DNA of 64,000 bases from a virus (IMGVR_UViG_3300030095_005604:3448-67447); one strand, 5' to 3'; counted from the stretch's first letter, positions 8,644-34,617 are shown. Notes: a model not told the origin generated them from the letters alone. Numbers and translations are program-made.

Positions 8644-9142
8644 AAATCCAGAACAAAAGGGAAGACAGGTCCCTTCTAAAACTGAAAAAACAGAATCTAA
8701 AAAAAGTTTTAAAGGTAATGAAAGAAGTATTGGATGGAGTTTAAAACAAGCTAGTACTGGACAATTTATTCAATTTACTTATAATGGTAAACGAAGAAGA
8801 GTTTTAGTCTTGTCAGAAAAATACAGAACAAGTAAAAAAAATTCTGTATTAACTTGTGTTGACTTAACACTTCATGCTTTCGCCCCTAATAAACTAAATA
8901 AAATATTCGACATAGGTAGCTTTCCTAGATTAGTCAGAACAGCAATTACAGATACAGATGACTTTAGATTTTTTGAAATAAATCCATCAACAGATTTAGA
9001 ATCACTTGTTAGTAAAAACAAATTCTTTAAAAACAACTATAAAACATTTTTAAGAAAAAAAATAACAGGTGTAGTAAAAATGTGGAATCCTATATTTTCA
9101 CCTGCTATGATTACAAAATTAAATATACAGGATATAGTGTAA
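8636..9142 (+). CDS. Hypothetical basic protein
   Basis: ORF in operon. Confidence 0.5.
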   Translation: MAKNPEQKGRQVPSKTEKTESKKSFKGNERSIGWSLKQASTGQFIQFTYNGKRRRVLVLSEKYRTSKKNSVLTCVDLTLHAFAPNKLNKIFDIGSFPRLVRTAITDTDDFRFFEINPSTDLESLVSKNKFFKNNYKTFLRKKITGVVKMWNPIFSPAMITKLNIQDIV

Positions 9143-9768
9143 TGAAAATAAGTTATAGTATTATGACTCACAATGAAACAGATTCATTATCCAAGTTAAT
9201 AGAATTTTTAATGTATAATAAAGACTCAGAAGACGAGATAGTAATTCTTGATGATTATTCAGATAATGAAGAGACAAAAGAAATACTTGATATTACCTGT
9301 TCAATGTATAATAAAGATATAAAATTTGAACAAAGACATTTATTAAAAGATTACGCTGGACAAAAAAATTACTTGACGCGTATGTGTAAAGGTTCGTATA
9401 TTGTAAACATAGATGCTGATGAGATACCACATAAACAATTAATGTCAAATATAAAAACTATAATAGAATCAAATCCAACGATAGACTTATTTTGGGTGCC
9501 GAGAGTAAACACGGTTGATGGTATCACACAAGACCATATGCAACAATGGGGTTGGAATGTTAATGAACATGGTTGGATTAACTTTCCAGATTGGCAAGGC
9601 AGGATTTGGAGAAATAGACCAAACATTATGTGGAAGAATAAAGTACACGAATTATTAACTGGTTATAAAGAACATACTTATCTTCCTGCTGAGGAAGAGT
9701 TTTGTTTTTATCATCCTAAAGACATAGATAGACAAGAAAAACAAAATAAATTTTACGATACAATATGA
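9142..9768 (+). CDS. GT2-family glycosyltransferase
   Basis: ISYSIMTHNE, ILDDYS, IDADE, VHE motif; start ATG 9142. Confidence 0.88.
   Translation: MKISYSIMTHNETDSLSKLIEFLMYNKDSEDEIVILDDYSDNEETKEILDITCSMYNKDIKFEQRHLLKDYAGQKNYLTRMCKGSYIVNIDADEIPHKQLMSNIKTIIESNPTIDLFWVPRVNTVDGITQDHMQQWGWNVNEHGWINFPDWQGRIWRNRPNIMWKNKVHELLTGYKEHTYLPAEEEFCFYHPKDIDRQEKQNKFYDTI
9373..9402 (+). promoter_or_regulatory. Promoter embedded inside the GT2 coding sequence
   Basis: TTGACGCGTAT...TTCG-TATATT with 18-nt spacer; first 11 nt identical to intergenic promoters at 964 and 49199. Confidence 0.55.
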
Positions 9769-10415
9769 TTAAAAAAGGTTTAATAGTTTCGTGTCAAGCG
9801 GAAACAGGTAGTGCGTTCAATGATGTACATTCAATTCAATCCTTTGCTCTGGAAGCTGAAAGAGGTGGTGCAGTAGGATTACGATTGAGAGAGACAGAAA
9901 ATGTGCTTGGTGTTAGTAAAGTATGTAAATTACCCATTATTGGTTTGACGAAAACAAATTATGAAAATGGTGATGTTTGGATAACACCATCTTGGAATCA
10001 AGCTAAAGATTTAGTTAATGTTGGTGCTACATATGTAGCGATGGATGCCACTGGTAGATGTGGGTATTATGATATAGAATTAGCATCATCAGGTGGTTTG
10101 ATTAAAATTATTGGTGACATATCACACATAAATCAAGCTGAAGAAGCATTAAAAAGTGGTTGTACAATGTTAACTACAGCTTTAAGTGGTTACACCTCTG
10201 AGTGTGATGTTGATATGAGTAGACCGGACTTTGTTTTATTACATCAATTAAGAAAATACTATCCTGATGTACCAATAATGGCTGAAGGTAGATATTGGGA
10301 ATACGATGAAGTAGAAAGAGCTTTTGCTATGGGTGCACATAATGTTGTCGTAGGGACTGCTATAACGAGACCACACTTAATAACAAAAAGATTAATGGAG
10401 GCATATAATGAGTAA
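9765..10415 (+). CDS. nanE: N-acetylmannosamine-6-phosphate 2-epimerase
   Basis: GLIVSCQA, LPIIGLTK, ITP, MAEGR, VVGTAITRP. Confidence 0.9.
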   Translation: MIKKGLIVSCQAETGSAFNDVHSIQSFALEAERGGAVGLRLRETENVLGVSKVCKLPIIGLTKTNYENGDVWITPSWNQAKDLVNVGATYVAMDATGRCGYYDIELASSGGLIKIIGDISHINQAEEALKSGCTMLTTALSGYTSECDVDMSRPDFVLLHQLRKYYPDVPIMAEGRYWEYDEVERAFAMGAHNVVVGTAITRPHLITKRLMEAYNE

Positions 10416-11244
10416 TAAAGTAAATATAATTGCAGAAATAGGAATCAACCATCAAGGTAATTTTGAATTGATGAAGAAAATGATGTTAGCTGCTAAAAAA
10501 TGTGGAGTAGACTATGTAAAAAGTCAGAAAAGAGAACCTAGAGTATGTTTGACAGAAGAACAATATAATAGAGTATATGATAGTCCTAATAGTTTTGGTA
10601 AAACTTATGGTGAACACAAAGAAAACTTAGAGTTTTCAGTAGAACAATGGGAAGAATTACAAAAATATGCTGAGAAAATCAATGTAAAAATGTTTATGAG
10701 TGTATTTGATGAAGTCAGTGCTGATAAGATGAATGAGATGGGTATGGAGTTATTTAAAATAGGTTCAGCAGAAGTGACTAAATTGTCTTTATTAGAACAA
10801 GTTAAATCTTTTAATAAACCAATAATAATATCTTCAGGTATGAGTACTATTGAAGAGATTGATACAGCTATTGATGTGTTGAAAGGTTCAGATGTAACTT
10901 TAATGCAATGTACATCATCTTATCCATCAAAAGAGACAGAAGTACATCTAAATGTTTTAAAAACTTATCAGGATAGATATAACATACCAGTAGGGTTAAG
11001 TGGTCATTATGTAAATGGTAGTGGTGCTATAGAAGCAGCAGCTGTTGCATTAGGGGCTAAATGGATAGAAAGGCACTTCACATTAGACAGAACTATGAAA
11101 GGTACTGACCAATCAGCATCTTTAGAAAAAATAGGAATGCAAAATGTGGTTAAAAGTGTTCGTGTAGTAGAGAGAGCTTTAGGTGGATTTAATAAACAAG
11201 TATTAAAATCTGAAATACCAATCAGAGAAAAGTGCCGTGGATAA
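10408..11244 (+). CDS. neuB: Nonulosonic (sialic) acid synthase, NeuB family; lacks the C-terminal SAF/antifreeze domain
   Basis: IIAEIGINHQG, VKSQK, FKIGS, IISSGMST, QCTSSYP, GLSGH, IERHFTLD. Confidence 0.9.
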   Translation: MSNKVNIIAEIGINHQGNFELMKKMMLAAKKCGVDYVKSQKREPRVCLTEEQYNRVYDSPNSFGKTYGEHKENLEFSVEQWEELQKYAEKINVKMFMSVFDEVSADKMNEMGMELFKIGSAEVTKLSLLEQVKSFNKPIIISSGMSTIEEIDTAIDVLKGSDVTLMQCTSSYPSKETEVHLNVLKTYQDRYNIPVGLSGHYVNGSGAIEAAAVALGAKWIERHFTLDRTMKGTDQSASLEKIGMQNVVKSVRVVERALGGFNKQVLKSEIPIREKCRG

Positions 11245-11977
11245 ATTAAAAGTAGTTATATTAACAGGAAATCAACCAAGACATACATATTTTGTAAACA
11301 ATATGAATAAACATTTTGATGTTGTAGGTTTGATAACTGAACCTAAACACAAATATTTTGATACTCAACAAGAAGAAAGTGATATAGTAAGAAAACATTT
11401 TGTTAATTTAAAAGTAACTGAACAATTTTATTTTCAATCTCCATCATTAGAACTTGCTAATCATAAACAATTAAAATCCAAAGAAATAAACAATAATGAA
11501 AACATAGAGTGGGTTAAATCATTGAAACCAGACTATGTGTTACTTTATGGTACTGGTATATTAGATAGGTTATGGTTTGATGAATTTGATGACAGAATAA
11601 TAAATTTACATTTAGGAATGTCACCATATTACAGAGGAAGTGCAACCTTGTTTTGGCCTTTTTATAATGATGAATTAGATTATTTAGGTATAACAATTCA
11701 TATAGCAACCGAACAAGTTGATGCTGGTGATATTTTAAAGATAGTTACTCCTGACATAGAAGACGAAGACAATTACTATGACATAACAAATAAATTGATA
11801 CAAAAATCAATAAAAAAGTTTTCAAGTGTTGTTTATGATTATCATGCAGGTGATATAAAAAAGGTACCTCAAGATATTACTAAACAAAAATATTACTATA
11901 AGAAAAAAGATTTTACAGAAAAATGTCTAAAAAAAATATCAACTAAGATGTGGGGTGGTAATGCTATTAGTAGTTAA
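11237..11977 (+). CDS. Formyltransferase-family protein
   Basis: INLHLGMSPYYRG, TIH...VDAGDIL. Confidence 0.85.
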   Translation: MDKLKVVILTGNQPRHTYFVNNMNKHFDVVGLITEPKHKYFDTQQEESDIVRKHFVNLKVTEQFYFQSPSLELANHKQLKSKEINNNENIEWVKSLKPDYVLLYGTGILDRLWFDEFDDRIINLHLGMSPYYRGSATLFWPFYNDELDYLGITIHIATEQVDAGDILKIVTPDIEDEDNYYDITNKLIQKSIKKFSSVVYDYHAGDIKKVPQDITKQKYYYKKKDFTEKCLKKISTKMWGGNAISS

Positions 11978-12878
11978 CTACCATTATATAAGGGAAGACA
12001 TTCCTGAATCCGGTATACATCCAATAACACCCTCATTTTTTAGAAACCAATTAGAATTAATTAATAAAAATGGTTATGAATTTGTTTCTTTAGAAGATAT
12101 TAATAAGACTATAACGACAAAAGAAAATAACCTACCAAAGAAATCTTGTTTAATAACTTTTGATGATGGGTTAAAAGAATCTTATGAAAATGGTTTACCA
12201 ATATTAGAAACTATGGGTATACCAGCAGCATTTTTTGTTATAAGTGATACTATAGTTTATAACAATTTAATAGATGTACATAAATTACATTATTTAAGAA
12301 CACAAGTAGATACAAAAGAAATTTATGACATAATAGCTACAGAGTGTGAAAAATTAAATGATGATGTTATTATGAAACAATATCCGTTTGATGATTTGAT
12401 AAGTGGTAAAGTAAAGTATTTATTAAATTTTGTGAAACCAAAACTAATTAAAGATATTTTTCCAAAATTTATTAATAAATCTGAATCAGATATTGTTAAA
12501 GAATTTTATATGAATGATAAACAAATAAAAGATTTATATGAAAAAGGTTACTTAGGGACACATAGTAAATCACATAAACCTTTAGCTGAATTATCTACTG
12601 AAAATATGTATGCAGATATACTTGAATCTATTCTTTGTATAGAAGAACTTTGTGGAAGTGATAGTCGTATAGAATCTATATCGTATCCATATGGTGAAGC
12701 TAGTGCAGTAAATGACAAGGTAAAATATAATTGTGAACGGTTAGATTTGGTTAGTGGTTTTACTATGTTTAGAGGATTAAATAAAATTGAAGACATTATA
12801 AACAACCCTTTAATGATAAAAAGACTTGACACTAATGAAGTATTTGGTGGTAAAAATGAAGGAGAATATGTAATATGA
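11961..12878 (+). CDS. Polysaccharide deacetylase (CE4/NodB-like)
   Basis: YHY, LITFDDG, GTHSKSH, SYPYG. Confidence 0.85.
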   Translation: MLLVVNYHYIREDIPESGIHPITPSFFRNQLELINKNGYEFVSLEDINKTITTKENNLPKKSCLITFDDGLKESYENGLPILETMGIPAAFFVISDTIVYNNLIDVHKLHYLRTQVDTKEIYDIIATECEKLNDDVIMKQYPFDDLISGKVKYLLNFVKPKLIKDIFPKFINKSESDIVKEFYMNDKQIKDLYEKGYLGTHSKSHKPLAELSTENMYADILESILCIEELCGSDSRIESISYPYGEASAVNDKVKYNCERLDLVSGFTMFRGLNKIEDIINNPLMIKRLDTNEVFGGKNEGEYVI

Positions 12879-13795
12879 GAATTTTAATAACAGGTGGTTC
12901 AGGAACAATAGGAAAAGCTTTTATAAAAGAATTTCCAGAACACACTTACTACAACATCAGTAGAAATGAAAAATTTCTAACTGATTTAATGAGAGAACAT
13001 CCTGAAACTAAAAGTTATATTGGTAACATAGAAGACGAAGGTTTCCTAATGAGAGTATTCAATAGTGTTAAACCTGATGTGGTTATTCATGCTGCAGCTA
13101 TGAAACATATAAATATAGCAGAAGAGAATCCAATACAAACTTGTCAATCAAATGTGATTGGTAGTATAAATGTCATCAATGCAAGTATTATGAATGATGT
13201 TCCAATAACAATAGGAATCAGTACAGACAAAGCTTGTTCTTCTGCTAGTGTTTATGGTGACACAAAATCATTAATGGAAAAATGTTTTATGGAAGCTAAT
13301 ACAACAAAAAACAGATTTGCATTAACACGATTTGCAAATGTAGCACATAGTAATGGTTCTGTATTACCATTTTGGTTAGAATCTAAACGAAAAGATGAAC
13401 CTATTAAAATAACAGACCCTAATATGAACAGGCTAATATTTTCGAAATCAGATGCTGCTAAACTTATCAACAAAGCTATCAACAAATGTGACTCAGGTGA
13501 TGGTGGTTTTGTTTGTTCATATAAAATGAAATCTGTTAATATGTTTGATATGGCTCAGACAATAGCTTATGAAGGTTATATATCAGAGATACAAGAGGTT
13601 GGTAAACGGCCTGGTGAAAAAGTAAATGAAGATTTGATAAGTAAAGAAGAATTACCATTTACTTATGTGCATGGCGATATGATTTATATTTACAATCAAG
13701 AAAATTTAGATGAGAATACTTTATCAGAACCTTATTCATCTGCAACTGCTGAAAAAATGACAGAAGAAGAAATTAAAGATTTAATATGGCCTTAA
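12875..13795 (+). CDS. UDP-GlcNAc 4,6-dehydratase-like (PseB/CapD family)
   Basis: ITGGSGTIG, HAAAMKH, ISTDKA, YGDTK, RFANV...SNGSVLP, RPGEK. Confidence 0.85.
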   Translation: MRILITGGSGTIGKAFIKEFPEHTYYNISRNEKFLTDLMREHPETKSYIGNIEDEGFLMRVFNSVKPDVVIHAAAMKHINIAEENPIQTCQSNVIGSINVINASIMNDVPITIGISTDKACSSASVYGDTKSLMEKCFMEANTTKNRFALTRFANVAHSNGSVLPFWLESKRKDEPIKITDPNMNRLIFSKSDAAKLINKAINKCDSGDGGFVCSYKMKSVNMFDMAQTIAYEGYISEIQEVGKRPGEKVNEDLISKEELPFTYVHGDMIYIYNQENLDENTLSEPYSSATAEKMTEEEIKDLIWP

Positions 13796-14448
13796 ATATA
13801 TTAATACCAGCCAGAGGGGGTTCTAAAAGAATACCTAAGAAGAATTTAGCTGACTTAAATGGTAAGCCTTTGTTATATTATACTATAAATACTTGTAGAA
13901 ATATTACTGATGAAATTTATGTGAGTACTGATGATACTGATATAAAAGAATTTGCAGAATCTATGAATGTAAATGTTATAGAAAGGCCAGATAGATTATC
14001 AACAGACGAATCAAAAACTGAAGATGTTGTAGAACATTTTTTAGAAGAAATAGACACAGATTTGTTTTGTGTTGTACAACCTACATCACCTTTATTATCA
14101 TTTACATCTATATTAGAAGCTATTGATAAGCTTGTATCACCTTTATATGGTGTCGAACAAGTAAAATCTTATGATTCTGTTATATCAGTATGTAAAGATG
14201 TAAATTATTATTGGGATTCAAAAGGTAAACCAGTAAATTTTGAATTAGGAAATAGAAAAAGAACACAAGAACATCAGGGATGGTTCAAAGAAAATGGGGC
14301 TTTCTATATGACAACTAAAGATAATTTTTTAAAAGATAATATTTTACAAAATGGTAATGTTGGATTTATAGAGATGAGTGAAAGAGAATCAATTGACATA
14401 GACAATAAATATGATTTAGAAATAGTTAGGAGAATAATTAATGATTAA
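13786..14448 (+). CDS. neuA: CMP-nonulosonate synthetase (acylneuraminate cytidylyltransferase)
   Basis: IPARGGSKRIPKKN, STDD, QPTSPL, ENGAFY, SIDID. Confidence 0.92.
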   Translation: MALNILIPARGGSKRIPKKNLADLNGKPLLYYTINTCRNITDEIYVSTDDTDIKEFAESMNVNVIERPDRLSTDESKTEDVVEHFLEEIDTDLFCVVQPTSPLLSFTSILEAIDKLVSPLYGVEQVKSYDSVISVCKDVNYYWDSKGKPVNFELGNRKRTQEHQGWFKENGAFYMTTKDNFLKDNILQNGNVGFIEMSERESIDIDNKYDLEIVRRIIND

Positions 14449-15469
14449 GATAAAAATTTTAAACCCTGGAGTGTACAGGAATGAACCTACATTTAGACCT
14501 TTTGCTTTTATACAGGAAAAGTTATATGCTGATTATAGTATTCAGTTTACAGATTCAGATGATTATGATTATATGTTTGTTGGTATGCATGATTTTATAG
14601 ATAAGAAAAGAACATTACAAGAGAGTATTGATTATGGTTTAGAAAATGTTTCTAAAATAACAGGAGATTATTTTTTATTCGAAGGCTCTGATTCAACATC
14701 TTTAATGGGTGGTTATGAAGTATTTGAACAAAGTGATGCAATGTATTTATTTAAAAATCAAATGTTACCATCTCAAGAAGCATATAAAGTTCCATATGCT
14801 CATAATAAATGGTTTTGGGGCAGTGGTAGTGATTTAGATTTATCATACGATATTCCAGATGATATGTGGGAAAGAATTAAATTTACAGGATGGAATGTAG
14901 GACAATTAGTACCAGATTATAGAAATTTTCAACCAATAAATACTAACAAATCATTAGATATATGTGCTATATTTCAAGCTAAACACGATTATAGTGAAGA
15001 CCATAAATCTCAAAATAATCAATTTTATAGAGAACATCGTGGAGGATTGTGGAACAAGTTAGATGATTTAAAACAAAGATATAATATGGTGTGTGATAGA
15101 TTACCAAAAGATGTATACTTAAAAACTATGCATGATTCTAAAATATCCTTTTCTCCATTTGGAATGGGTGAGATTTGTTTTAGAGATTTTGAGTGTATGC
15201 AGTTCGGAACTATTTTTATCAAACCCAATCAAGACCTAGTACACACTATTCCTAATATTTATGAAGACGGAAAAACTTACATTGGTTGTAAATATGATTG
15301 GTCTGATTTAGAAGAAAAGATTGATTATGTGTTATCAAACTTTGATGAATTAAATGTTGAGATAAATGAGAACATAAGAAAGAAATTCATAGAAGGATAT
15401 GACTACGACAAATTATGTTTACATTGGTATAATATCTTTAAAAATCAAAGTGATGTGGAGACAAAATGA
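14441..15469 (+). CDS. Putative GT-B glycosyltransferase
   Basis: SPFGMGEICFRDFECM resembles a GT-B donor-binding C-terminal domain. Confidence 0.55.
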   Translation: MIKIKILNPGVYRNEPTFRPFAFIQEKLYADYSIQFTDSDDYDYMFVGMHDFIDKKRTLQESIDYGLENVSKITGDYFLFEGSDSTSLMGGYEVFEQSDAMYLFKNQMLPSQEAYKVPYAHNKWFWGSGSDLDLSYDIPDDMWERIKFTGWNVGQLVPDYRNFQPINTNKSLDICAIFQAKHDYSEDHKSQNNQFYREHRGGLWNKLDDLKQRYNMVCDRLPKDVYLKTMHDSKISFSPFGMGEICFRDFECMQFGTIFIKPNQDLVHTIPNIYEDGKTYIGCKYDWSDLEEKIDYVLSNFDELNVEINENIRKKFIEGYDYDKLCLHWYNIFKNQSDVETK

Positions 15470-16179
15470 TTAAAGACAGCATAGCAATATTGTGTAGAGG
15501 TGAGTCTTTAAAAGAGATAGAGCTATTACCTGATGTTGAAGAATATATAATAGTCAATGGATTTTCTGATGAATTTGAATTAGACTATATTAAAAATGTG
15601 TTAACTGATAAAAAAATCACTCATCTTATCAGTTTAGGCTCATTAGCTCACGGACACCCATCTGGTGCTAGAAATGGTTGTTTTGGTGCTATGATAGCTA
15701 AGAATAATTTTAAACAATTCAACATAGAAAGAATAGTTTTATCTTACATAGAAGAGTGTTTACCTCACAATGCTAATAGTCCAGTCGTACACAATGTAAA
15801 AAACAAAGATGAAAAAAATATACCTGTGTCTTGTTTAGGAGATGAAAATAAAACACTTATGATAAAAAATCATCCAAGATATAAATTTACATATCCATCG
15901 TGTGGTGTTGGGGCATTAGGATATTCTTCTGTAGATTTAAAGAAAAAAAATATCTACATAATTGGTATGGATTTTTATGATGGTAGTGGATATTTAGAGA
16001 GAGGTATTTACAAATCACAAGAAGCTGCTATAAAGAGAAGTGCAGATGAAGGAAAACAGATGAGAGAGTTTTTTCCAGGTTTTATAGAAAAACAACCTGA
16101 AATTAATTTTACTATGTATACATATTCAGATTTTAATACACAATTAAATAACTTAAATATTATCAATTTAAGACAATAA
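15466..16179 (+). CDS. Putative sialyl/nonulosonyl-transferase (Cst-II/GT42-like, DUF115-like fold)
   Basis: IAILCRGESLKEI...IYIIGMDFYDGSGY parallels the Cst-II IIAGNGPSLKEI...IYLSGIDFY pattern; follows neuA. Confidence 0.55.
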   Translation: MIKDSIAILCRGESLKEIELLPDVEEYIIVNGFSDEFELDYIKNVLTDKKITHLISLGSLAHGHPSGARNGCFGAMIAKNNFKQFNIERIVLSYIEECLPHNANSPVVHNVKNKDEKNIPVSCLGDENKTLMIKNHPRYKFTYPSCGVGALGYSSVDLKKKNIYIIGMDFYDGSGYLERGIYKSQEAAIKRSADEGKQMREFFPGFIEKQPEINFTMYTYSDFNTQLNNLNIINLRQ

Positions 16180-23863: not shown

Positions 23864-25027
23864 ATGAAATTTGATTGGCAACTTATAAATGATAGTATAA
23901 CAAAAGAAGATAAAAAAGCACTTACTGATTTTATTAATACAGATGGAGTTAGATTTACACAAGGTAAGTATGTTAGACAATTTGAAGAAGAATGGTCTAA
24001 ATGGGTAGGATGTAAACATAGTGTTTATGTAAACTCAGGTGCTTCTGCTAACTACATTATGGCGTCAATAATGAAAGAGAAAAAAGGTTTAGGTGAAGTA
24101 ATTGTATCACCACTCGGATGGGTTTCAGATGTGTCACCATTAGTTAATCTCGGTTTTACACCTGTATTTGTTGATGTTGATTTAGAAAATATGTCAATTA
24201 CATTAGAAAACATCAAGAAAGCTGTAACAGATAAAACGGTAGGAATTACTTTGGTGCATGTTTTAGGATTCAACGCAGTTAATGATGAGTTGGTTGAGTT
24301 CTGTAAAGATGAAGATTTATTCTTTATTGAAGATTGTTGTGAAGCACACGGTGCAACTTATAATGGTGAGAGAGTTGGTAACTTTGGAGATGTATCTAAC
24401 TTTTCATTTTATTTTGGACATCACATAACATCTGTTGAAGGTGGAATGGTATGTACAAATGATGATGAGTTATATAATTATGCAAAACTATTCAGGTCAC
24501 ACGGAATGGTGAGAGAAGCATCAAAAGAAACTCAAGACAAGTTTAAAGAAAGTCATCCAGGTTGTAATCCATTATTTACATTTGCTGTTCCAGGATACAA
24601 TTTGAGAAATCAAGAGTTTAATGCTGTTTTAGGTTTGTCTCAATTACCAAGATTACAAAACAATGTTGAAGTTAGGTCTGAAAATTTAGAAATATGGTTA
24701 GACACATTAGATTCAGATATATTCTTTACTGATTTTGACAGAGAAGGAAATAGTAATTTTGCATTACCTTTAATTTTATTAAAAAAAGACTTGGAATATT
24801 TCCAAAAAGTTTGTAAATTATTAGATGAAGAGAATGTTGAATTTAGAATTGGTACAGCAGGCGGTGGTAATCAATCAAGACAACCATATTTAGAAAAATA
24901 TGAATTTGTTACTCACGATTTGAGTAATGTAAATCACATTCACGATTACGCTTTATATGTAGGTAATCATCCAGAACTAACAAAAGGACAAATAATTGAT
25001 TTGTGTAGGAAATTAAATAATGTTTAA
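23864..25027 (+). CDS. DegT-fold PLP/PMP enzyme with His at the catalytic Lys position (ColD/E1-type 3-dehydratase)
   Basis: VNSGASAN, EDCCEAHG, FSFYFGHHITSVEGG, GYNLR; 387 aa. Confidence 0.8.
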   Translation: MKFDWQLINDSITKEDKKALTDFINTDGVRFTQGKYVRQFEEEWSKWVGCKHSVYVNSGASANYIMASIMKEKKGLGEVIVSPLGWVSDVSPLVNLGFTPVFVDVDLENMSITLENIKKAVTDKTVGITLVHVLGFNAVNDELVEFCKDEDLFFIEDCCEAHGATYNGERVGNFGDVSNFSFYFGHHITSVEGGMVCTNDDELYNYAKLFRSHGMVREASKETQDKFKESHPGCNPLFTFAVPGYNLRNQEFNAVLGLSQLPRLQNNVEVRSENLEIWLDTLDSDIFFTDFDREGNSNFALPLILLKKDLEYFQKVCKLLDEENVEFRIGTAGGGNQSRQPYLEKYEFVTHDLSNVNHIHDYALYVGNHPELTKGQIIDLCRKLNNV

Positions 25028-32425: not shown

Positions 32426-32832
32426 GTGAAAGAAAATATTTACCAACATTAGCTGAACTTATAGATAGATTATCCATAATACAGCTCAAGGAAGTTTTTA
32501 TATCTGAACATAAAACAGAATATGCAGAAGAAATAAAAGATATTGTACACGACATCGATATGATATTACAAGATGAGAATGTAAAGTTGAGTGGGAAAGA
32601 TGTCAGAGCAATTGTAGTATTGTCACAGATGAATTTACATATTTGGCATAATGAATCAGAAGCAAGAAAAGGAATAAATGCTGGAGAAAATCTTTTACTT
32701 ACTCACGGATTAAATGGTATCAGAAACACTGCTAAAAACATAATACAAGAAAATGTTGGTGGTAGAAAAGATTACAAAATTGATTGTATAGCAGATGAAT
32801 TTAAAGATTGGGAGATTAGTTGGAATGAGTAA
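32422..32832 (+). CDS. Hypothetical helical protein
   Basis: TLAELIDRLSI...NLHIWHNE...RN..KN pattern. Confidence 0.5.
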   Translation: MSERKYLPTLAELIDRLSIIQLKEVFISEHKTEYAEEIKDIVHDIDMILQDENVKLSGKDVRAIVVLSQMNLHIWHNESEARKGINAGENLLLTHGLNGIRNTAKNIIQENVGGRKDYKIDCIADEFKDWEISWNE

Positions 32833-33568
32833 AAAGGTTCTTATCATAGGAGATAGTTGTACAGATGTTTTTGTTTATGGTGACATAAATAGAATATGTC
32901 CAGAAGCACCTGTTCCAGTTATTAAACCAACACATCAAACTGAAAATGGTGGAATGTCTAAAAATGTACAAGAAAATATTGAAGTATTAGGTTATGATAC
33001 TCATATTATTACAAATAACAATGACATCAGAAAAGTTAGATATGTAGATAACAGCTCAAATCAATTAGTTATAAGAGTAGATGAACACGATTATTGTGAA
33101 AGAATTAGTAAAAAACAATTAACTAAAGTGATGGAAAGATGTTATGATGCTATAATAGTATCAGATTATTGTAAAGGATTTTTAACTGAAGAAGATATTA
33201 AATGGATTTGTGAAAATAACAATAATGTTTTTATAGATACAAAAAAGAAATTAGGTGAATGGATTTTAAAAGCTAAATTTATAAAAATAAATCATCTTGA
33301 ACATTTAAAGAATTTTGAAATAATACCAAACTATCCAGAATTTAACGACAAATTGATAGTGACTCAAGGTAGTAAAGGTTGTATTTACAATGGAGAAACA
33401 TTTCCTGTACAAGAAGTTTCAGTAAAAGATGTTTCAGGAGCTGGAGACACTTTTTTATCAGGATTGGTAGTTGAGTATATCAGAACAGGAGATATAAAAA
33501 AAGCAATTAATTTTGCTCAAGATTGCACAACAAAAGTAGTACAAAAATTAGGAGTATCAACAATATGA
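32825..33568 (+). CDS. HldE/RfaE kinase domain (PfkB family)
   Basis: VLIIGD, RICPEAPVPV, SDYCKG, DVSGAGDTF. Confidence 0.9.
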   Translation: MSKKVLIIGDSCTDVFVYGDINRICPEAPVPVIKPTHQTENGGMSKNVQENIEVLGYDTHIITNNNDIRKVRYVDNSSNQLVIRVDEHDYCERISKKQLTKVMERCYDAIIVSDYCKGFLTEEDIKWICENNNNVFIDTKKKLGEWILKAKFIKINHLEHLKNFEIIPNYPEFNDKLIVTQGSKGCIYNGETFPVQEVSVKDVSGAGDTFLSGLVVEYIRTGDIKKAINFAQDCTTKVVQKLGVSTI

Positions 33569-33855
33569 TAATATATGTGGATATAGATGGTACAATTTGC
33601 CATACAACAAATGCAGACTATGAAAATTCAAAACCAAGACACGACCAAATAGATAAGATAAATAAATTATACGATGAAGGACACGAAATAGTTTATTGGA
33701 CAGCTCGTGGTGGGACTACTGGTATTGATTGGAAACTTTTTACAAAAATACAGATTAACAATTGGGGCTGTAAGTATACAAGAATTGAAGAACAAAAAAA
33801 ACCATCATATGATTTATTTATTGATGACTTGTCAAAAAGAATAGAGGAAATATAA
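33565..33855 (+). CDS. Small HAD-family phosphatase
   Basis: IYVDIDGTIC, WTARG, FIDD. Confidence 0.8.
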   Translation: MIIYVDIDGTICHTTNADYENSKPRHDQIDKINKLYDEGHEIVYWTARGGTTGIDWKLFTKIQINNWGCKYTRIEEQKKPSYDLFIDDLSKRIEEI

Positions 33856-34247
33856 TGGGACACAAAATTAAACCAAAAGTATGTGAAGGTTGTAAGGTTC
33901 CGAAAGGATGGGGAGAAGAAATCATCATTGAGAACAATGAAATGTATTGTGGTAAACTTTTGATTTTCAAAAAAGGTTGTAAGTTTTCAATGCACTATCA
34001 TTTAATTAAAGATGAAACTTGGTATGTAGACAAAGGTGAATTTCTTTATCGTTGGATAGATACAGATACAGCAGAAACTATTGAACAAAAATTAAAAGTA
34101 GGTGATGTAGTTAGACAAAGAGTTGGTCAACCACATCAATTAGAAGCATTAACAGATGGTGTAGTATTTGAAGTATCAACACAACACTTTGATGAGGATA
34201 GTTATAGAGTATGGAAAGGAGATAGTCAAAATGAAAGTATGGACTAA
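33855..34247 (+). CDS. Cupin (sugar isomerase-like)
   Basis: VPKGWGEE, SMHYH..KDETWYV, PHQLEA, EVST. Confidence 0.75.
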   Translation: MGHKIKPKVCEGCKVPKGWGEEIIIENNEMYCGKLLIFKKGCKFSMHYHLIKDETWYVDKGEFLYRWIDTDTAETIEQKLKVGDVVRQRVGQPHQLEALTDGVVFEVSTQHFDEDSYRVWKGDSQNESMD

Positions 34248-34617
34248 TGGATGTTTTGATGTTTTACATAGAGGACACATAGAATTATTTAGATATGCTA
34301 GGTCACTTGGTGATGAATTAATTGTTGGTATAGACACAGATGAAAAAGTTAAACAGGACAAAGGTAAAAATCGACCTGTGAATAATTTACACGATAGAAT
34401 GTTTATGTTACAATCAATACAATACATTGATAAAGTTATTCCGTTTGATTCTAAAACAGAACTTGAGAGAACTTTAAAATGGCTTCATCCTTCCATTATG
34501 GTAATTGGTGCTGATTGGAGAGGTAAGGAGGTAGTCGGTAAAAAATATGCTGATAGATTAGTATTCTTTGAAAGATTTGGTGACTATTCAACTACAAAAA
34601 TACTGGAGAAAAAATGA
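34231..34617 (+). CDS. HldE/RfaE nucleotidyltransferase domain
   Basis: TNGCFDVLHRGH, LIVGIDTD, KGKNRP, GADW, YSTT. Confidence 0.9.
   Translation: MKVWTNGCFDVLHRGHIELFRYARSLGDELIVGIDTDEKVKQDKGKNRPVNNLHDRMFMLQSIQYIDKVIPFDSKTELERTLKWLHPSIMVIGADWRGKEVVGKKYADRLVFFERFGDYSTTKILEKK

What the first reader, a model, noticed from the sequence alone, without database searches (positions are those of the whole stretch)
9765..16179. Nonulosonic-acid module using NanE with NeuB, plus formyltransferase, deacetylase and Cst-II-like transferase
Seen: nanE, neuB (no SAF domain), formyltransferase, CE4 deacetylase, PseB-like dehydratase, neuA, a GT and a GT42-like ORF, with no neuC in the window. Established: NanE is normally catabolic (ManNAc-6-P/GlcNAc-6-P interconversion); bacterial NeuB uses free ManNAc from NeuC, whereas the vertebrate and KDN synthases use 6-phosphosugars and need a 9-phosphatase. 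Inference: NanE runs biosynthetically to feed a 9-phosphate route (candidate phosphatase at 33565), and deacetylation plus formylation yields an N-formyl nonulosonate transferred by a phage sialyltransferase-like enzyme.
Basis: inference. Interest (0 to 1): 0.75.

Follow-up and report, generated by a model that had tools for sequence, protein, structure and literature searches.

The report
Phage sialic-acid pathway fed by NanE
An uncultured marine T4-like phage carries a tightly packed gene set that most likely builds a sialic acid by the phosphorylated, animal-style route, starting from the normally catabolic enzyme NanE, then swaps its N-acetyl group for a formyl group and passes it to a Cst-II-like transferase; I found no paper describing this combination.

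Summary

Comparative evidence supports the 6-phosphate route. NanE sits directly before this NeuB type in 12 further contigs. Of 114 SAF-less relatives with usable flanks, 62 have a HAD phosphatase gene within 300 bp and only 2 have NeuC within 5 kb. One related phage contig carries canonical NeuB+NeuC in a shared gene neighbourhood.

NeuB-FMT-CE4 order recurs in five related contigs, and the FMT-CE4 pair recurs in Planctomycetota, once beside NeuB. A 2026 preprint reports formylated and free-amine CMP-nonulosonates from a cluster with such a pair. An N-formyl (or free-amine) neuraminic acid is therefore plausible, but unproven.

The weak point is the phosphatase at 33565. It is a real HAD, and homologues adjoin NeuB elsewhere. 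Here, and in its closest relatives, it sits in a PfkB-HAD-cupin-nucleotidyltransferase module.

The scan's first-stage notes flagged similar cassettes on other DNA. Verdict: new variant of known kinds; everything rests on sequence, fold and gene neighbourhood.

The parts
9082..9768 (+). GT2-family glycosyltransferase; its stop overlaps the NanE start
   Evidence: PF00535, E 6e-14. Homologues of 48-78% identity lie upstream of the cassette in L013, L095, L096 and L097.
9765..10415 (+). NanE, ManNAc-6-P/GlcNAc-6-P 2-epimerase, read here as the entry step of biosynthesis
   Evidence: PF04131, E 1e-37. Best solved relative is C. perfringens NanE 4utt (E 6e-32), with the Lys in GLTKTNY, the EGR and the RP motifs conserved. 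The gene overlaps NeuB by 8 bases. NanE lies within 100 bp of NeuB in 12 of 14 loci that have it.
10408..11244 (+). SAF-less NeuB-family synthase, inferred to be a sugar-6-P + PEP -> nonulosonate-9-P synthase
   Evidence: PF03102, 241 bits; TIGR03569 242 bits > PseI 184 bits, both under their cut-offs. It belongs to a large 276-284 aa family. Census of HAD linkage, tree, K-x-Q-K-R signature.
11237..11977 (+). N-formyltransferase (N10-formyl-THF type), catalytic Asn/His/Asp present
   Evidence: PF00551, E 9e-16. Nearest models are ArnA, Fmt and PurN. Solved relatives include ArnA, PseJ and sugar N-formyltransferases, and the alignment shows NLH...D. It directly follows NeuB in L096, L097, L098, L100 and L101.
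11955..12878 (+). CE4 deacetylase without signal peptide (cytoplasmic); TFDDG and HSKSH metal motifs present
   Evidence: PF01522, E 2e-19; PgaB/IcaB-like; sequence read. It follows FMT in L096-L098. CE4-FMT pairs occur in Planctomycetota loci L197-L199 and L201.
12875..13795 (+). PseB/FnlA/CapE-like UDP-GlcNAc 4,6-dehydratase-type SDR; role in this module unresolved
   Evidence: PF02719, 211 bits; TIGR03589 181 bits, cut-off 408. Best solved relative is H. pylori FlaA1, E 1e-38. It is adjacent to FMT in L095 but was not found in the fetched parts of L096/L097.
13786..14448 (+). CMP-nonulosonate synthetase (NeuA/PseF-like)
   Evidence: PF02348, E 1e-26; PseF model 116 bits, below its cut-off. 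Homologues of 43-46% identity sit in the NanE-NeuB-MTase-NeuA cassettes.
14441..15469 (+). GT-B (GT4-like) glycosyltransferase of a very abundant marine-phage family
   Evidence: 905 homologues; some carry PF13524/PF24785. Model pLDDT 83.7. Foldseek top hits are HepE, TreT, BshA, PglA and PimA, probability 1.0. An 83%-identical copy is in L095.
15466..16179 (+). GT42-like (Cst-I/Cst-II-like) putative CMP-nonulosonate transferase
33565..33855 (+). Small cap-less HAD phosphatase (1xpj/AfhF-like); only candidate sugar phosphatase in the contig, but set inside a PfkB-HAD-cupin-nucleotidyltransferase module
   Evidence: DxDGT and the other HAD motifs are present; 9iqw E 2.5e-10, 1xpj E 1e-5. The ATG at 33565 overlaps the PfkB stop. 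No KdsC-type HAD is present. Context census.

Best explanation
Genes 9765-16179 are a phage-encoded module for an activated, N-acyl-remodelled sialic acid.

Inferred steps:
1. NanE converts host GlcNAc-6-P to ManNAc-6-P.
2. The SAF-less NeuB condenses ManNAc-6-P with PEP to a neuraminate 9-phosphate. This is what animal NANS and the Bacteroides/Prymnesium Kdn-9-P synthases do.
3. A HAD phosphatase removes the 9-phosphate. It could be the one at 33565 moonlighting, a host enzyme, or a gene on the unsampled part of the genome.
4. NeuA makes the CMP-sugar.
5. At a stage that cannot be fixed from sequence, the cytoplasmic CE4 enzyme removes the N-acetyl group and the formyltransferase formylates the freed amine. 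The product would be CMP-N-formylneuraminic acid, possibly with some free-amine form.
6. The GT42-like protein (15466) transfers the sugar to an unknown acceptor. The GT-B (14441) and GT2 (9082) enzymes probably build that acceptor.

Shown here: gene identities, folds, conserved motifs, conserved gene orders and their statistics. Inferred: every substrate and product.
For: Identities and motifs.

No NeuC or SAF domain in the contig.

NanE-NeuB coupling: the genes overlap by 8 bases, and the pair recurs in L001, L002, L096, L097 and L099-L106. NanE-linked NeuBs form one starred clade. That clade also holds a Thermoguttaceae MAG in which NeuA and NanE share one open frame next to NeuB, with a KdsC-like HAD 880 bp downstream.

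Phosphate route: of 114 SAF-less (K-x-Q-K-R) NeuBs with at least 700 bp of flank, 62 have a HAD gene within 300 bp and 74 within 5 kb. NeuC is within 5 kb in 2. A 466-aa NeuB-HAD fusion exists (P0114). This matches the characterised BT1714/BT1713, P. parvum and human 9-phosphate routes (PMC6200933).

Module swap: L095 carries NeuB+SAF with a bona fide NeuC (396 bits) between shared neighbours of the island (GT2, a 14441 homologue, a PseB-like gene, FMT).

Neu5Ac identity: sister cassettes add a Rieske+MBL protein of CMAH-like architecture and a GT29-like sialyltransferase.

N-acyl remodelling: NeuB-FMT-CE4 order is kept in L096-L098, and NeuB-FMT in L100/L101, at 56-83% identity. No aminotransferase hit was found in the 12-13 kb held for L096/L097. 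CE4-FMT pairs occur in four Planctomycetota genomes, one of them beside NeuB. The SugarBase preprint reports CMP-nonulosonates with a formylated and a free amine from a cluster holding a deacetylase and a formyltransferase.

Transferase.
Against: - No enzyme has been assayed. Gene neighbourhood cannot tell whether the phosphate is removed after or before condensation.
- The HAD at 33565 is 22 kb away. It is translationally coupled to a PfkB kinase, and its closest relatives (72-80% identity) keep that PfkB-HAD-cupin-nucleotidyltransferase context. Its family includes a phage Ara-1,5-bisphosphate 5-phosphatase.
- GlcNAc-6-P is a recycling or catabolic intermediate in bacteria, not a biosynthetic one. 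No GlcN-6-P N-acetyltransferase was seen in the window.
- FMT is also adjacent to a PseB-like dehydratase here and in L095. That is the usual setting of sugar 4-N-formyltransferases (PseJ-type).
- A formyltransferase/CE4 pair can also act as a formylation-deformylation cycle, as ArnA/ArnD does.
- The GT42-like family lacks the catalytic His188 of Cst-II.
- N-formylneuraminic acid has, to my knowledge, never been reported.
Confidence: 0.5

Rival explanations
1. There are two separate pathways side by side. NanE, NeuB and NeuA make plain CMP-Neu5Ac. The PseB-like dehydratase, an aminotransferase elsewhere in the island and the formyltransferase make a UDP-4-formamido-4,6-dideoxy-hexosamine. CE4 acts on another substrate, such as a polymer or another sugar.
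For: PseB-like and FMT are adjacent in L095 and nearly so here. FMT resembles PseJ and other nucleotide-sugar N-formyltransferases. A DegT-family gene exists at 23864.
Against: NeuB-FMT-CE4 order is kept in L096-L098, where no PseB-like gene or aminotransferase was found in the sequence held. CE4 has no signal peptide.
Confidence: 0.22
2. Formylation is transient, as in the ArnA/ArnD logic of L-Ara4N. The formyltransferase and the CE4 enzyme (as deformylase) act in sequence, so the final glycan carries a free-amine neuraminic acid, giving a zwitterionic surface sugar.
For: ArnA is the top NCBIfam model for FMT. ArnD is a CE4-family deformylase (my own knowledge). Free-amine CMP-nonulosonates are reported for Kuenenia.
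Against: CE4 shows no ArnD-model hit. A Neu5Ac-type sugar has no free amine to formylate unless it is deacetylated first, so the enzyme must at least also deacetylate.
Confidence: 0.13
3. The phosphate is removed before condensation. NanE makes ManNAc-6-P, a phosphatase gives free ManNAc, and the SAF-less NeuB condenses ManNAc as classical bacterial NeuB does.
For: Adjacency of HAD genes is equally compatible with this order. The NeuB_NnaB model is the best-scoring NCBIfam model.
Against: All characterised synthase-phosphatase pairs condense first: human NANS/NANP, BT1714/BT1713 and P. parvum (PMC6200933). The SAF domain that helps bind ManNAc in N. meningitidis NeuB (PMC8208679) is absent. 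HAD-linked NeuBs carry a basic K-x-Q-K-R signature where NeuC-linked ones have K-x-Q-T/C-H.
Confidence: 0.1
4. The module makes a 5,7-diamino (legionaminic or pseudaminic-type) acid. The PseB-like dehydratase starts the pathway, FMT replaces the N-acetyltransferase and NeuB acts as LegI/PseI.
For: A PseB-like gene, FMT and a PseF-like best hit for the cytidylyltransferase are present. Planctomycetota locus L201 has DegT-SDR-NeuB-FMT-CE4.
Against: A 6-deoxy sugar cannot be a NanE (6-phosphate) substrate, yet NanE is translationally coupled to NeuB. There is no aminotransferase, PseG or NeuC/LegG in the module. NeuB belongs to the phosphatase-linked SAF-less clade.
Confidence: 0.05

Closest known systems
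Kdn-9-P route of Bacteroides thetaiotaomicron (BT1714 synthase, BT1713 KdsC-like phosphatase) and Prymnesium parvum (PMC6200933)
   Same: A NeuB-family synthase takes a hexose-6-phosphate, and a HAD phosphatase then removes the 9-phosphate. The same synthase-phosphatase gene pairing is the rule among SAF-less relatives of the window's NeuB.
   Different: Those enzymes use mannose-6-P, and the P. parvum enzyme rejects ManNAc-6-P. Here NanE is coupled to the synthase, pointing to ManNAc-6-P. The window has no KdsC-type phosphatase. I could not place BT1714 itself in my tree.
Animal sialic acid pathway (NANS, NANP, CMAS; CMAH and GT29 in relatives)
   Same: It shares the ManNAc-6-P -> Neu5Ac-9-P -> Neu5Ac -> CMP-Neu5Ac logic. 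Sister phage cassettes add CMAH-like (Rieske+MBL) and GT29-like genes.
   Different: ManNAc-6-P comes from NanE, not from the GNE epimerase/kinase. NeuB lacks the C-terminal antifreeze-like (SAF) domain. The phosphatase is of another HAD type. This window uses a GT42-like rather than a GT29-like transferase.
Canonical bacterial NeuC-NeuB-NeuA route (E. coli K1, N. meningitidis)
   Same: PEP condensation by a NeuB-family TIM barrel, followed by CMP activation.
   Different: There is no NeuC and no SAF domain. NeuB scores 242 bits against a 400-bit equivalog cut-off. The related phage contig L095 carries the canonical pair instead, between shared neighbouring genes.
Deacetylase + formyltransferase in the legionaminic-type cluster of Ca. 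Kuenenia stuttgartiensis (SugarBase preprint, 10.64898/2026.04.20.719630)
   Same: A deacetylase and a formyltransferase are embedded among nonulosonate genes. CMP-sugars with a formylated and a free amine were observed by mass spectrometry. I found similar NeuB-FMT-CE4 and CE4-FMT arrangements in unnamed Planctomycetota genomes.
   Different: That sugar is a 5,7-diamino acid made from a nucleotide sugar with an aminotransferase. Here the backbone is inferred to be neuraminic acid with a single nitrogen, made by the 6-phosphate route, in a phage. Homology to the Kuenenia proteins themselves could not be tested.
GT42 sialyltransferases Cst-I/Cst-II of Campylobacter jejuni
   Different: 15-19% identity, no Pfam CST-I hit, and no conserved His at the catalytic-base position. 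The acceptor is unknown.
AfhF / DLP3 gp81 / 1xpj-type small HAD phosphatases of T4-like phages (PMC13326640)
   Same: The HAD at 33565 is of this cap-less type. It sits in the same kinase-phosphatase-nucleotidyltransferase layout.
   Different: In 34 of 80 related viral loci the HAD lies near a NeuB gene, and directly beside it in 16. That is a context not described in that paper.

Membership tests
NanE (PF04131, ManNAc-6-P 2-epimerase) | Family HMM match over the full length | tested here: met
   PF04131 E 1e-37, positions 3-191 of 192. NF002231 scores 186.5 bits, just under its 189-bit cut-off.
NanE (PF04131, ManNAc-6-P 2-epimerase) | Catalytic Lys and the Gln/Arg/Glu/Arg substrate-binding residues | tested here: met
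   Alignment to C. perfringens NanE 4utt keeps SCQA, the R of GLRL, the K of GLTKTNY, EGR and TRP. Residue roles are from my own knowledge of the 4utt paper.
Canonical bacterial N-acetylneuraminate synthase (TIGR03569 equivalog) | Score over the curated cut-off, with the C-terminal SAF/antifreeze-like domain | tested here: not met
   242.5 bits against a 399.65-bit cut-off; the alignment ends at model position 274 of 329. No PF08666 in the contig.
NeuB family (PF03102) | TIM-barrel NeuB domain | tested here: met
   241 bits, positions 2-239 of 241.
9-phosphate-forming sialic acid synthases (NANS, Kdn-9-P synthase) | Uses a hexose-6-phosphate and releases a 9-phosphate | not testable with these tools
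   Indirect evidence only: HAD phosphatase within 300 bp in 62 of 114 relatives, NeuC within 5 kb in 2, a fusion protein P0114 and NanE coupling.
GT42 (Cst-I/Cst-II) sialyltransferases | GT-A variant fold of Cst-II | tested here: met
GT42 (Cst-I/Cst-II) sialyltransferases | Sequence family membership (Pfam PF06002 CST-I) | tested here: not met
   No Pfam hit even at E 10. Only a profile built from 50 homologues reaches Cst-I at E 1e-5.
GT42 (Cst-I/Cst-II) sialyltransferases | Catalytic base His188 (Cst-II numbering) | tested here: not met
   The window protein has no His after the DFY motif, and no conserved His in that region across the 50 homologues. The structural alignment was not inspected residue by residue.
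CE4 metal-dependent deacetylases (PF01522) | Family HMM match plus Asp-His-His metal motifs (TFDDG, H-S/T-x-x-H) | tested here: met
   PF01522 E 2e-19. TFDDG and HSKSH were read in the translation.
N10-formyl-THF-dependent formyltransferases (PF00551) | Family HMM match plus catalytic Asn-His...Asp | tested here: met
   PF00551 E 9e-16. IINLH and VDAGDIL align to the gramicidin F domain.
PseB (TIGR03589 equivalog) | Score over the curated cut-off | tested here: not met
   181 bits against 408. Nearest solved structure is FlaA1/PseB at E 1e-38, so it is PseB-like only.
KdsC / Kdn-9-P phosphatase family (TIGR01670) | Family HMM match anywhere in the contig | tested here: not met
   No match at E 0.1. 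The only HAD-type sugar phosphatase candidate is the small 1xpj-like protein at 33565.

The most novel reading that the evidence does not exclude
Marine T4-like phages make sialic acids by a self-contained NanE -> 9-phosphate route and diversify the N-acyl group. This lineage would make N-formylneuraminic acid, a sialic acid not reported in nature. Sister lineages would make N-glycolyl and O-methyl forms with CMAH-like and GT29-like enzymes. If so, much of the 'animal-type' sialylation toolkit circulates in ocean phages.
Probability: 0.3. Interest if true: 0.85.

Novelty: new variant of a known kind. Interest (0 to 1): 0.68.

Why it matters
Sialic acids are key recognition sugars. Their phosphorylated biosynthetic route is considered typical of animals, with Kdn variants in Bacteroides and microalgae.

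If the reading is right, it would have three consequences:
- It would give a third way of supplying the hexosamine (NanE run in reverse), beside NeuC and GNE.
- It would assign a function to the large, uncharacterised SAF-less NeuB family of environmental microbes.
- It would add a new natural sialic acid (N-formyl).

Relatives carrying GT29-like and CMAH-like genes bear on where the animal sialylation enzymes came from. The enzymes are small and soluble, so they are easy to test and could be useful for chemoenzymatic synthesis of modified sialosides. What the phage glycosylates (virion, host envelope or something else) is open.

Tried and rejected
Searches that gave nothing:
- Megablast of the module against GenBank phages: no match.
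- tblastn against GenBank phages found only 38-39% NeuB hits in two uncultured viruses. The NanE hits there look like host-derived contigs.
- Single-protein scans of viral contigs with CE4 and with NanE found nothing. FMT found one locus.
- Paper searches for a prokaryotic or phage Neu5Ac-9-P / NanE-fed route returned only eukaryotic or engineering papers. This covers open-access text only.

Tools or sources unavailable:
- The Wang 2008 BT1714 paper is not held. No named BT1714, human NANS, LegI or PseI sequence could be brought in by reference, so the NeuB tree has no characterised anchor apart from context labels.

Results to disregard or treat with caution:
- My first slice of the fusion protein P0114 contained NeuB sequence and hit every locus. 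That column should be ignored.
- That PDB entry 9iqw belongs to phage HY126 is only my guess, from the neighbouring entry 9iqz. No paper names it.

Readings considered and rejected:
- DegT at 23864 as the PseC partner of the PseB-like gene. It scores best as RfbH/E1-type and lies in another module.
- PfkB as a constant partner of the HAD. None of 56 PfkB-fetched viral loci had the HAD, although the closest HAD relatives do keep PfkB.

Not used: complex prediction.

Full report
**Setting.** The window is bases 3448-67447 of a single 67,447-base IMG/VR virus record. It has about 30% G+C, and almost all genes lie on the + strand. Upstream of the finding are a DNA polymerase B fragment, a clamp loader (AAA plus Phage_clamp_A), a PD-(D/E)XK nuclease and two GT1 genes. 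Downstream the sugar genes run on to about 41,400: RmlC, several SDRs, PanB-like, ThDP enzyme, radical SAM enzymes, DegT, GMD-like, GT8, PfkB, a nucleotidyltransferase and UDP-glucose dehydrogenase. Phage-type genes follow. This fits the large LPS-gene-rich variable regions described for pelagimyophages, which that paper does not link to sialic acids (PMC7029224).

**The observation.**
- NanE matches PF04131 at E 1e-37. Aligned to the solved C. perfringens enzyme, it keeps the catalytic Lys and the other active-site residues.
- NeuB is a 278-aa TIM-barrel-only protein. The NeuB_NnaB model aligns to position 274 of 329 and scores 242 bits against a 400-bit cut-off, and PseI scores 184. Its best solved relative is a 290-aa SAF-less enzyme, 6ncs.
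- FMT has the Asn-His...Asp catalytic set.
- The CE4 protein has TFDDG and HSKSH motifs and no signal peptide.
- The dehydratase is PseB/FnlA/CapE-like but far below the PseB cut-off.
- The cytidylyltransferase is CTP_transf_3.
- The contig holds one NeuB-family gene, no NeuC-type epimerase and no SAF domain.
- From 9082 to 16179 each gene overlaps or abuts the next. The NanE start overlaps the GT2 stop, and the NeuB start lies 8 bases inside NanE behind a GGAGG.

**The two unnamed proteins.**
- For 15466-16179, a full-library HMMER search gave 106 relatives. A 50-sequence alignment gave a model with pLDDT 94.1.
- Foldseek's ten best hits are Cst-I, Cst-II and a P. multocida sialyltransferase (E 4e-5 to 6e-4, probability 1.0).
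- The family profile also finds Cst-I by sequence (E 1e-5). It aligns the GxS, (R)CN-F, T/S-G and G-x-DFY motifs, and these are the invariant positions of the family.
- No His is conserved where Cst-II has its catalytic base. I therefore call the protein GT42-like, not a GT42 member.
- 14441-15469 belongs to a very abundant marine-viral family of 905 hits. It folds as a GT-B, GT4-like glycosyltransferase.

**Is the NanE-NeuB pairing real and biosynthetic?** Viral and metagenomic contigs fetched with NeuB show two recurrent cassettes.
- Variant A is GT29-like, NanE, NeuB, methyltransferase, NeuA, a 596-aa Rieske+metallo-beta-lactamase protein, and a small HAD. It occurs in L001, L002, L099 and L103-L107. 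The Rieske+MBL protein has the domain architecture of CMP-Neu5Ac hydroxylase.
- Variant B is NanE, (methyltransferase-like), NeuB, FMT, CE4. It occurs in this window and in L096-L098, L100 and L101.
- NanE lies within 100 bp of NeuB in 12 of 14 loci that have it.
- In a FastTree tree the NanE-linked NeuBs form one starred clade that splits into the two variants. Its nearest neighbours are a metagenomic contig (L109) with an overlapping small HAD and, outside that, a Thermoguttaceae MAG (L014). In the MAG, NeuA and NanE share one open frame, NeuB follows, and a KdsC-like HAD lies 880 bp downstream.
- The related phage contig L095 shares the GT2 gene, an 83%-identical copy of 14441, the PseB-like gene and FMT. 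Between them it carries a SAF-containing NeuB and a bona fide NeuC (396 bits, cut-off 236). I read NanE plus short NeuB and NeuC plus long NeuB as interchangeable modules.

**Does the short NeuB make a 9-phosphate?** This cannot be shown by computation, but the context is one-sided.
- The database holds thousands of 276-284-aa relatives, and one is fused to a HAD domain.
- I fetched 80 cellular loci, spanning many phyla and archaea, plus 80 metagenomic loci.
- A KdsC-like HAD gene occurs in 99 loci, within 100 bp of NeuB in 84 of them. NeuC occurs in 5.
- With proper denominators: of 114 SAF-less NeuBs with at least 700 bp on both sides, 62 have a HAD within 300 bp, 74 within 5 kb, and 2 have NeuC within 5 kb. 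My HAD detection used two seed sequences, so these are lower bounds.
- This is the arrangement of the characterised Kdn-9-P synthase and phosphatase of B. thetaiotaomicron. The P. parvum and human enzymes also act on 6-phosphates (PMC6200933).
- The HAD-linked NeuBs share a basic K-x-Q-K-R motif after the second strand, where the few NeuC-linked SAF-containing ones have K-x-Q-T/C-H. Only two xH-type sequences were counted, so this is a lead, not a test.
- Most cellular relatives lack NanE and may make Kdn. The phage clade adds NanE, which points to ManNAc-6-P. The CMAH-like and GT29-like genes of variant A point to Neu5Ac as the product.

**The phosphatase.**
- The ORF at 33565-33855 is a 96-aa cap-less HAD with all four motifs. 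Its hits are 9iqw at 2.5e-10 and 1xpj at 1e-5.
- Its ATG overlaps the stop of a PfkB kinase. A cupin and a cytidylyltransferase-like gene follow.
- A 2026 paper describes 1xpj-like HADs of T4-like phages (AfhF, DLP3 gp81). They remove the terminal phosphate of arabinofuranose 1,5-bisphosphate between a kinase and a nucleotidyltransferase (PMC13326640). That is the same logic as the local module.
- In 80 viral loci fetched with the HAD itself, a NeuB-family gene lies within 5 kb in 34, directly adjacent in 16. PfkB lies within 5 kb in 11, cupin in 20 and the nucleotidyltransferase in 13.
- The four closest homologues (72-80% identity) keep the PfkB-HAD-cupin-nucleotidyltransferase order. The next ones (61-69%) sit beside NeuB.
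- The contig has no KdsC-type gene. Its close relative L096 has one, together with KdsB-like and KdsA/DAHP-synthase-like genes, just upstream of NanE.
In this phage its primary job is probably in the neighbouring module. The 9-phosphatase may be this enzyme moonlighting, a host enzyme, or a gene outside the fragment.

**Formyltransferase and deacetylase.**
- NeuB-FMT-CE4 is kept in L096, L097 and L098, and NeuB-FMT in L100 and L101 up to the contig ends. Identities are 56-83%.
- No aminotransferase or PseB-like hit was found in the sequence held for L096/L097. If that holds, the only amine available to FMT there is one unmasked by CE4.
- In 401 Planctomycetota genomes, the three best FMT matches each have a CE4 homologue immediately upstream. 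A fourth locus reads DegT-SDR-NeuB(SAF-type)-FMT-CE4.
- The SugarBase preprint reports CMP-nonulosonates of Ca. Kuenenia with one formylated and one free amine. It assigns them to a cluster with a deacetylase and a formyltransferase among leg/neu genes.
- The pair is therefore a recurrent nonulosonate-tailoring unit. Applied to a mono-amino sugar, it predicts N-formyl or free-amine neuraminic acid.
- Variant A tailors the same N-acyl position in another way (CMAH-like), a parallel that I find suggestive.
- Caveats: FMT also neighbours the PseB-like gene here and in L095. An ArnA/ArnD-like cycle is possible. The stage at which the enzymes act (hexosamine-6-P, free acid or CMP-sugar) is open. 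NanE is reported to need the N-acyl carbonyl (title and abstract of PMC8482478), which argues that deacetylation follows epimerisation.

**Open problems.** The source of GlcNAc-6-P in the host is unclear, because bacteria make UDP-GlcNAc without it. The role of the PseB-like dehydratase is unexplained. The acceptor of the glycan is unknown. An earlier first-stage note on this genome remarks that the island has no export machinery.

**Novelty and earlier notes.**
- Known pieces are the 9-phosphate route (animals, Bacteroides, haptophytes), SAF-less NeuBs as an environmental class of unknown substrate (PMC8208679), the deacetylase/formyltransferase tailoring (preprint) and GT42 enzymes.
- I did not find in the open literature searched: NanE as the biosynthetic entry to NeuB, this route in a phage, its combination with FMT/CE4 on a Neu-type sugar, or the GT29-like/CMAH-like phage cassettes.
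- Unchecked first-stage notes of this scan flagged similar cassettes on other DNA: one phage with nanE, neuB, GT29, FMT, deacetylase, neuA and HAD in one run, and one NanE-NeuB-acetyltransferase-NeuA cluster. They are leads, not support.
- I rate this a new variant of known kinds, with moderate-to-high interest. Every biochemical step is inferred from sequence, fold and gene neighbourhood.

Noticed in passing
L001:6650-12319 (also L002, L099, L103-L107): Marine viral contigs carry GT29-like sialyltransferase, NanE, SAF-less NeuB, a methyltransferase, NeuA, a 596-aa Rieske+metallo-beta-lactamase protein with CMAH-like architecture, and a small HAD in one run. This suggests a phage pathway to N-glycolyl and/or O-methyl sialic acid.
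   Followed up: partly
L096:4645-7735: The window's closest relative (NeuB 94% identical) has four extra genes just upstream of NanE: a KdsB-like cytidylyltransferase, a KdsC-like HAD, a DAHP/KdsA-type synthase fused to a chorismate-mutase-type domain, and an MptE-like (sialyltransferase-fold) protein. This looks like a second ulosonic-acid module that is absent from the window.
   Followed up: partly
window 32795-34617; L259-L262, L267-L271: A PfkB kinase, small HAD, cupin and cytidylyltransferase-like module is conserved in several marine viral contigs. It has the kinase-phosphatase-nucleotidyltransferase logic of HldE/GmhB or phage AfhE/AfhF. Its sugar is unknown.
   Followed up: partly
window 10408-11244, residues 38-42: HAD-linked SAF-less NeuBs carry K-x-Q-K-R where NeuC-linked SAF-containing NeuBs carry K-x-Q-T/C-H. 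This may be a sequence marker of phosphate-sugar use, but it rests on few NeuC-linked sequences.
   Followed up: partly
window 14441-15469: This GT-B glycosyltransferase-like protein has over 900 database relatives, mostly 60-96% identical and mostly from marine viruses. It is one of the most conserved genes of the island, and its acceptor is unknown.
   Followed up: partly
L014:6723-10842: In a Thermoguttaceae MAG, NeuA and NanE lie in one open reading frame (a possible fusion), followed by SAF-less NeuB and a KdsC-like HAD. This is a cellular counterpart of the phage route.
   Followed up: partly
L096:11419-12165: In L096/L097 a PhyH-type dioxygenase follows CE4, where the window has the PseB-like gene. 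It may be another tailoring enzyme.
   Followed up: no
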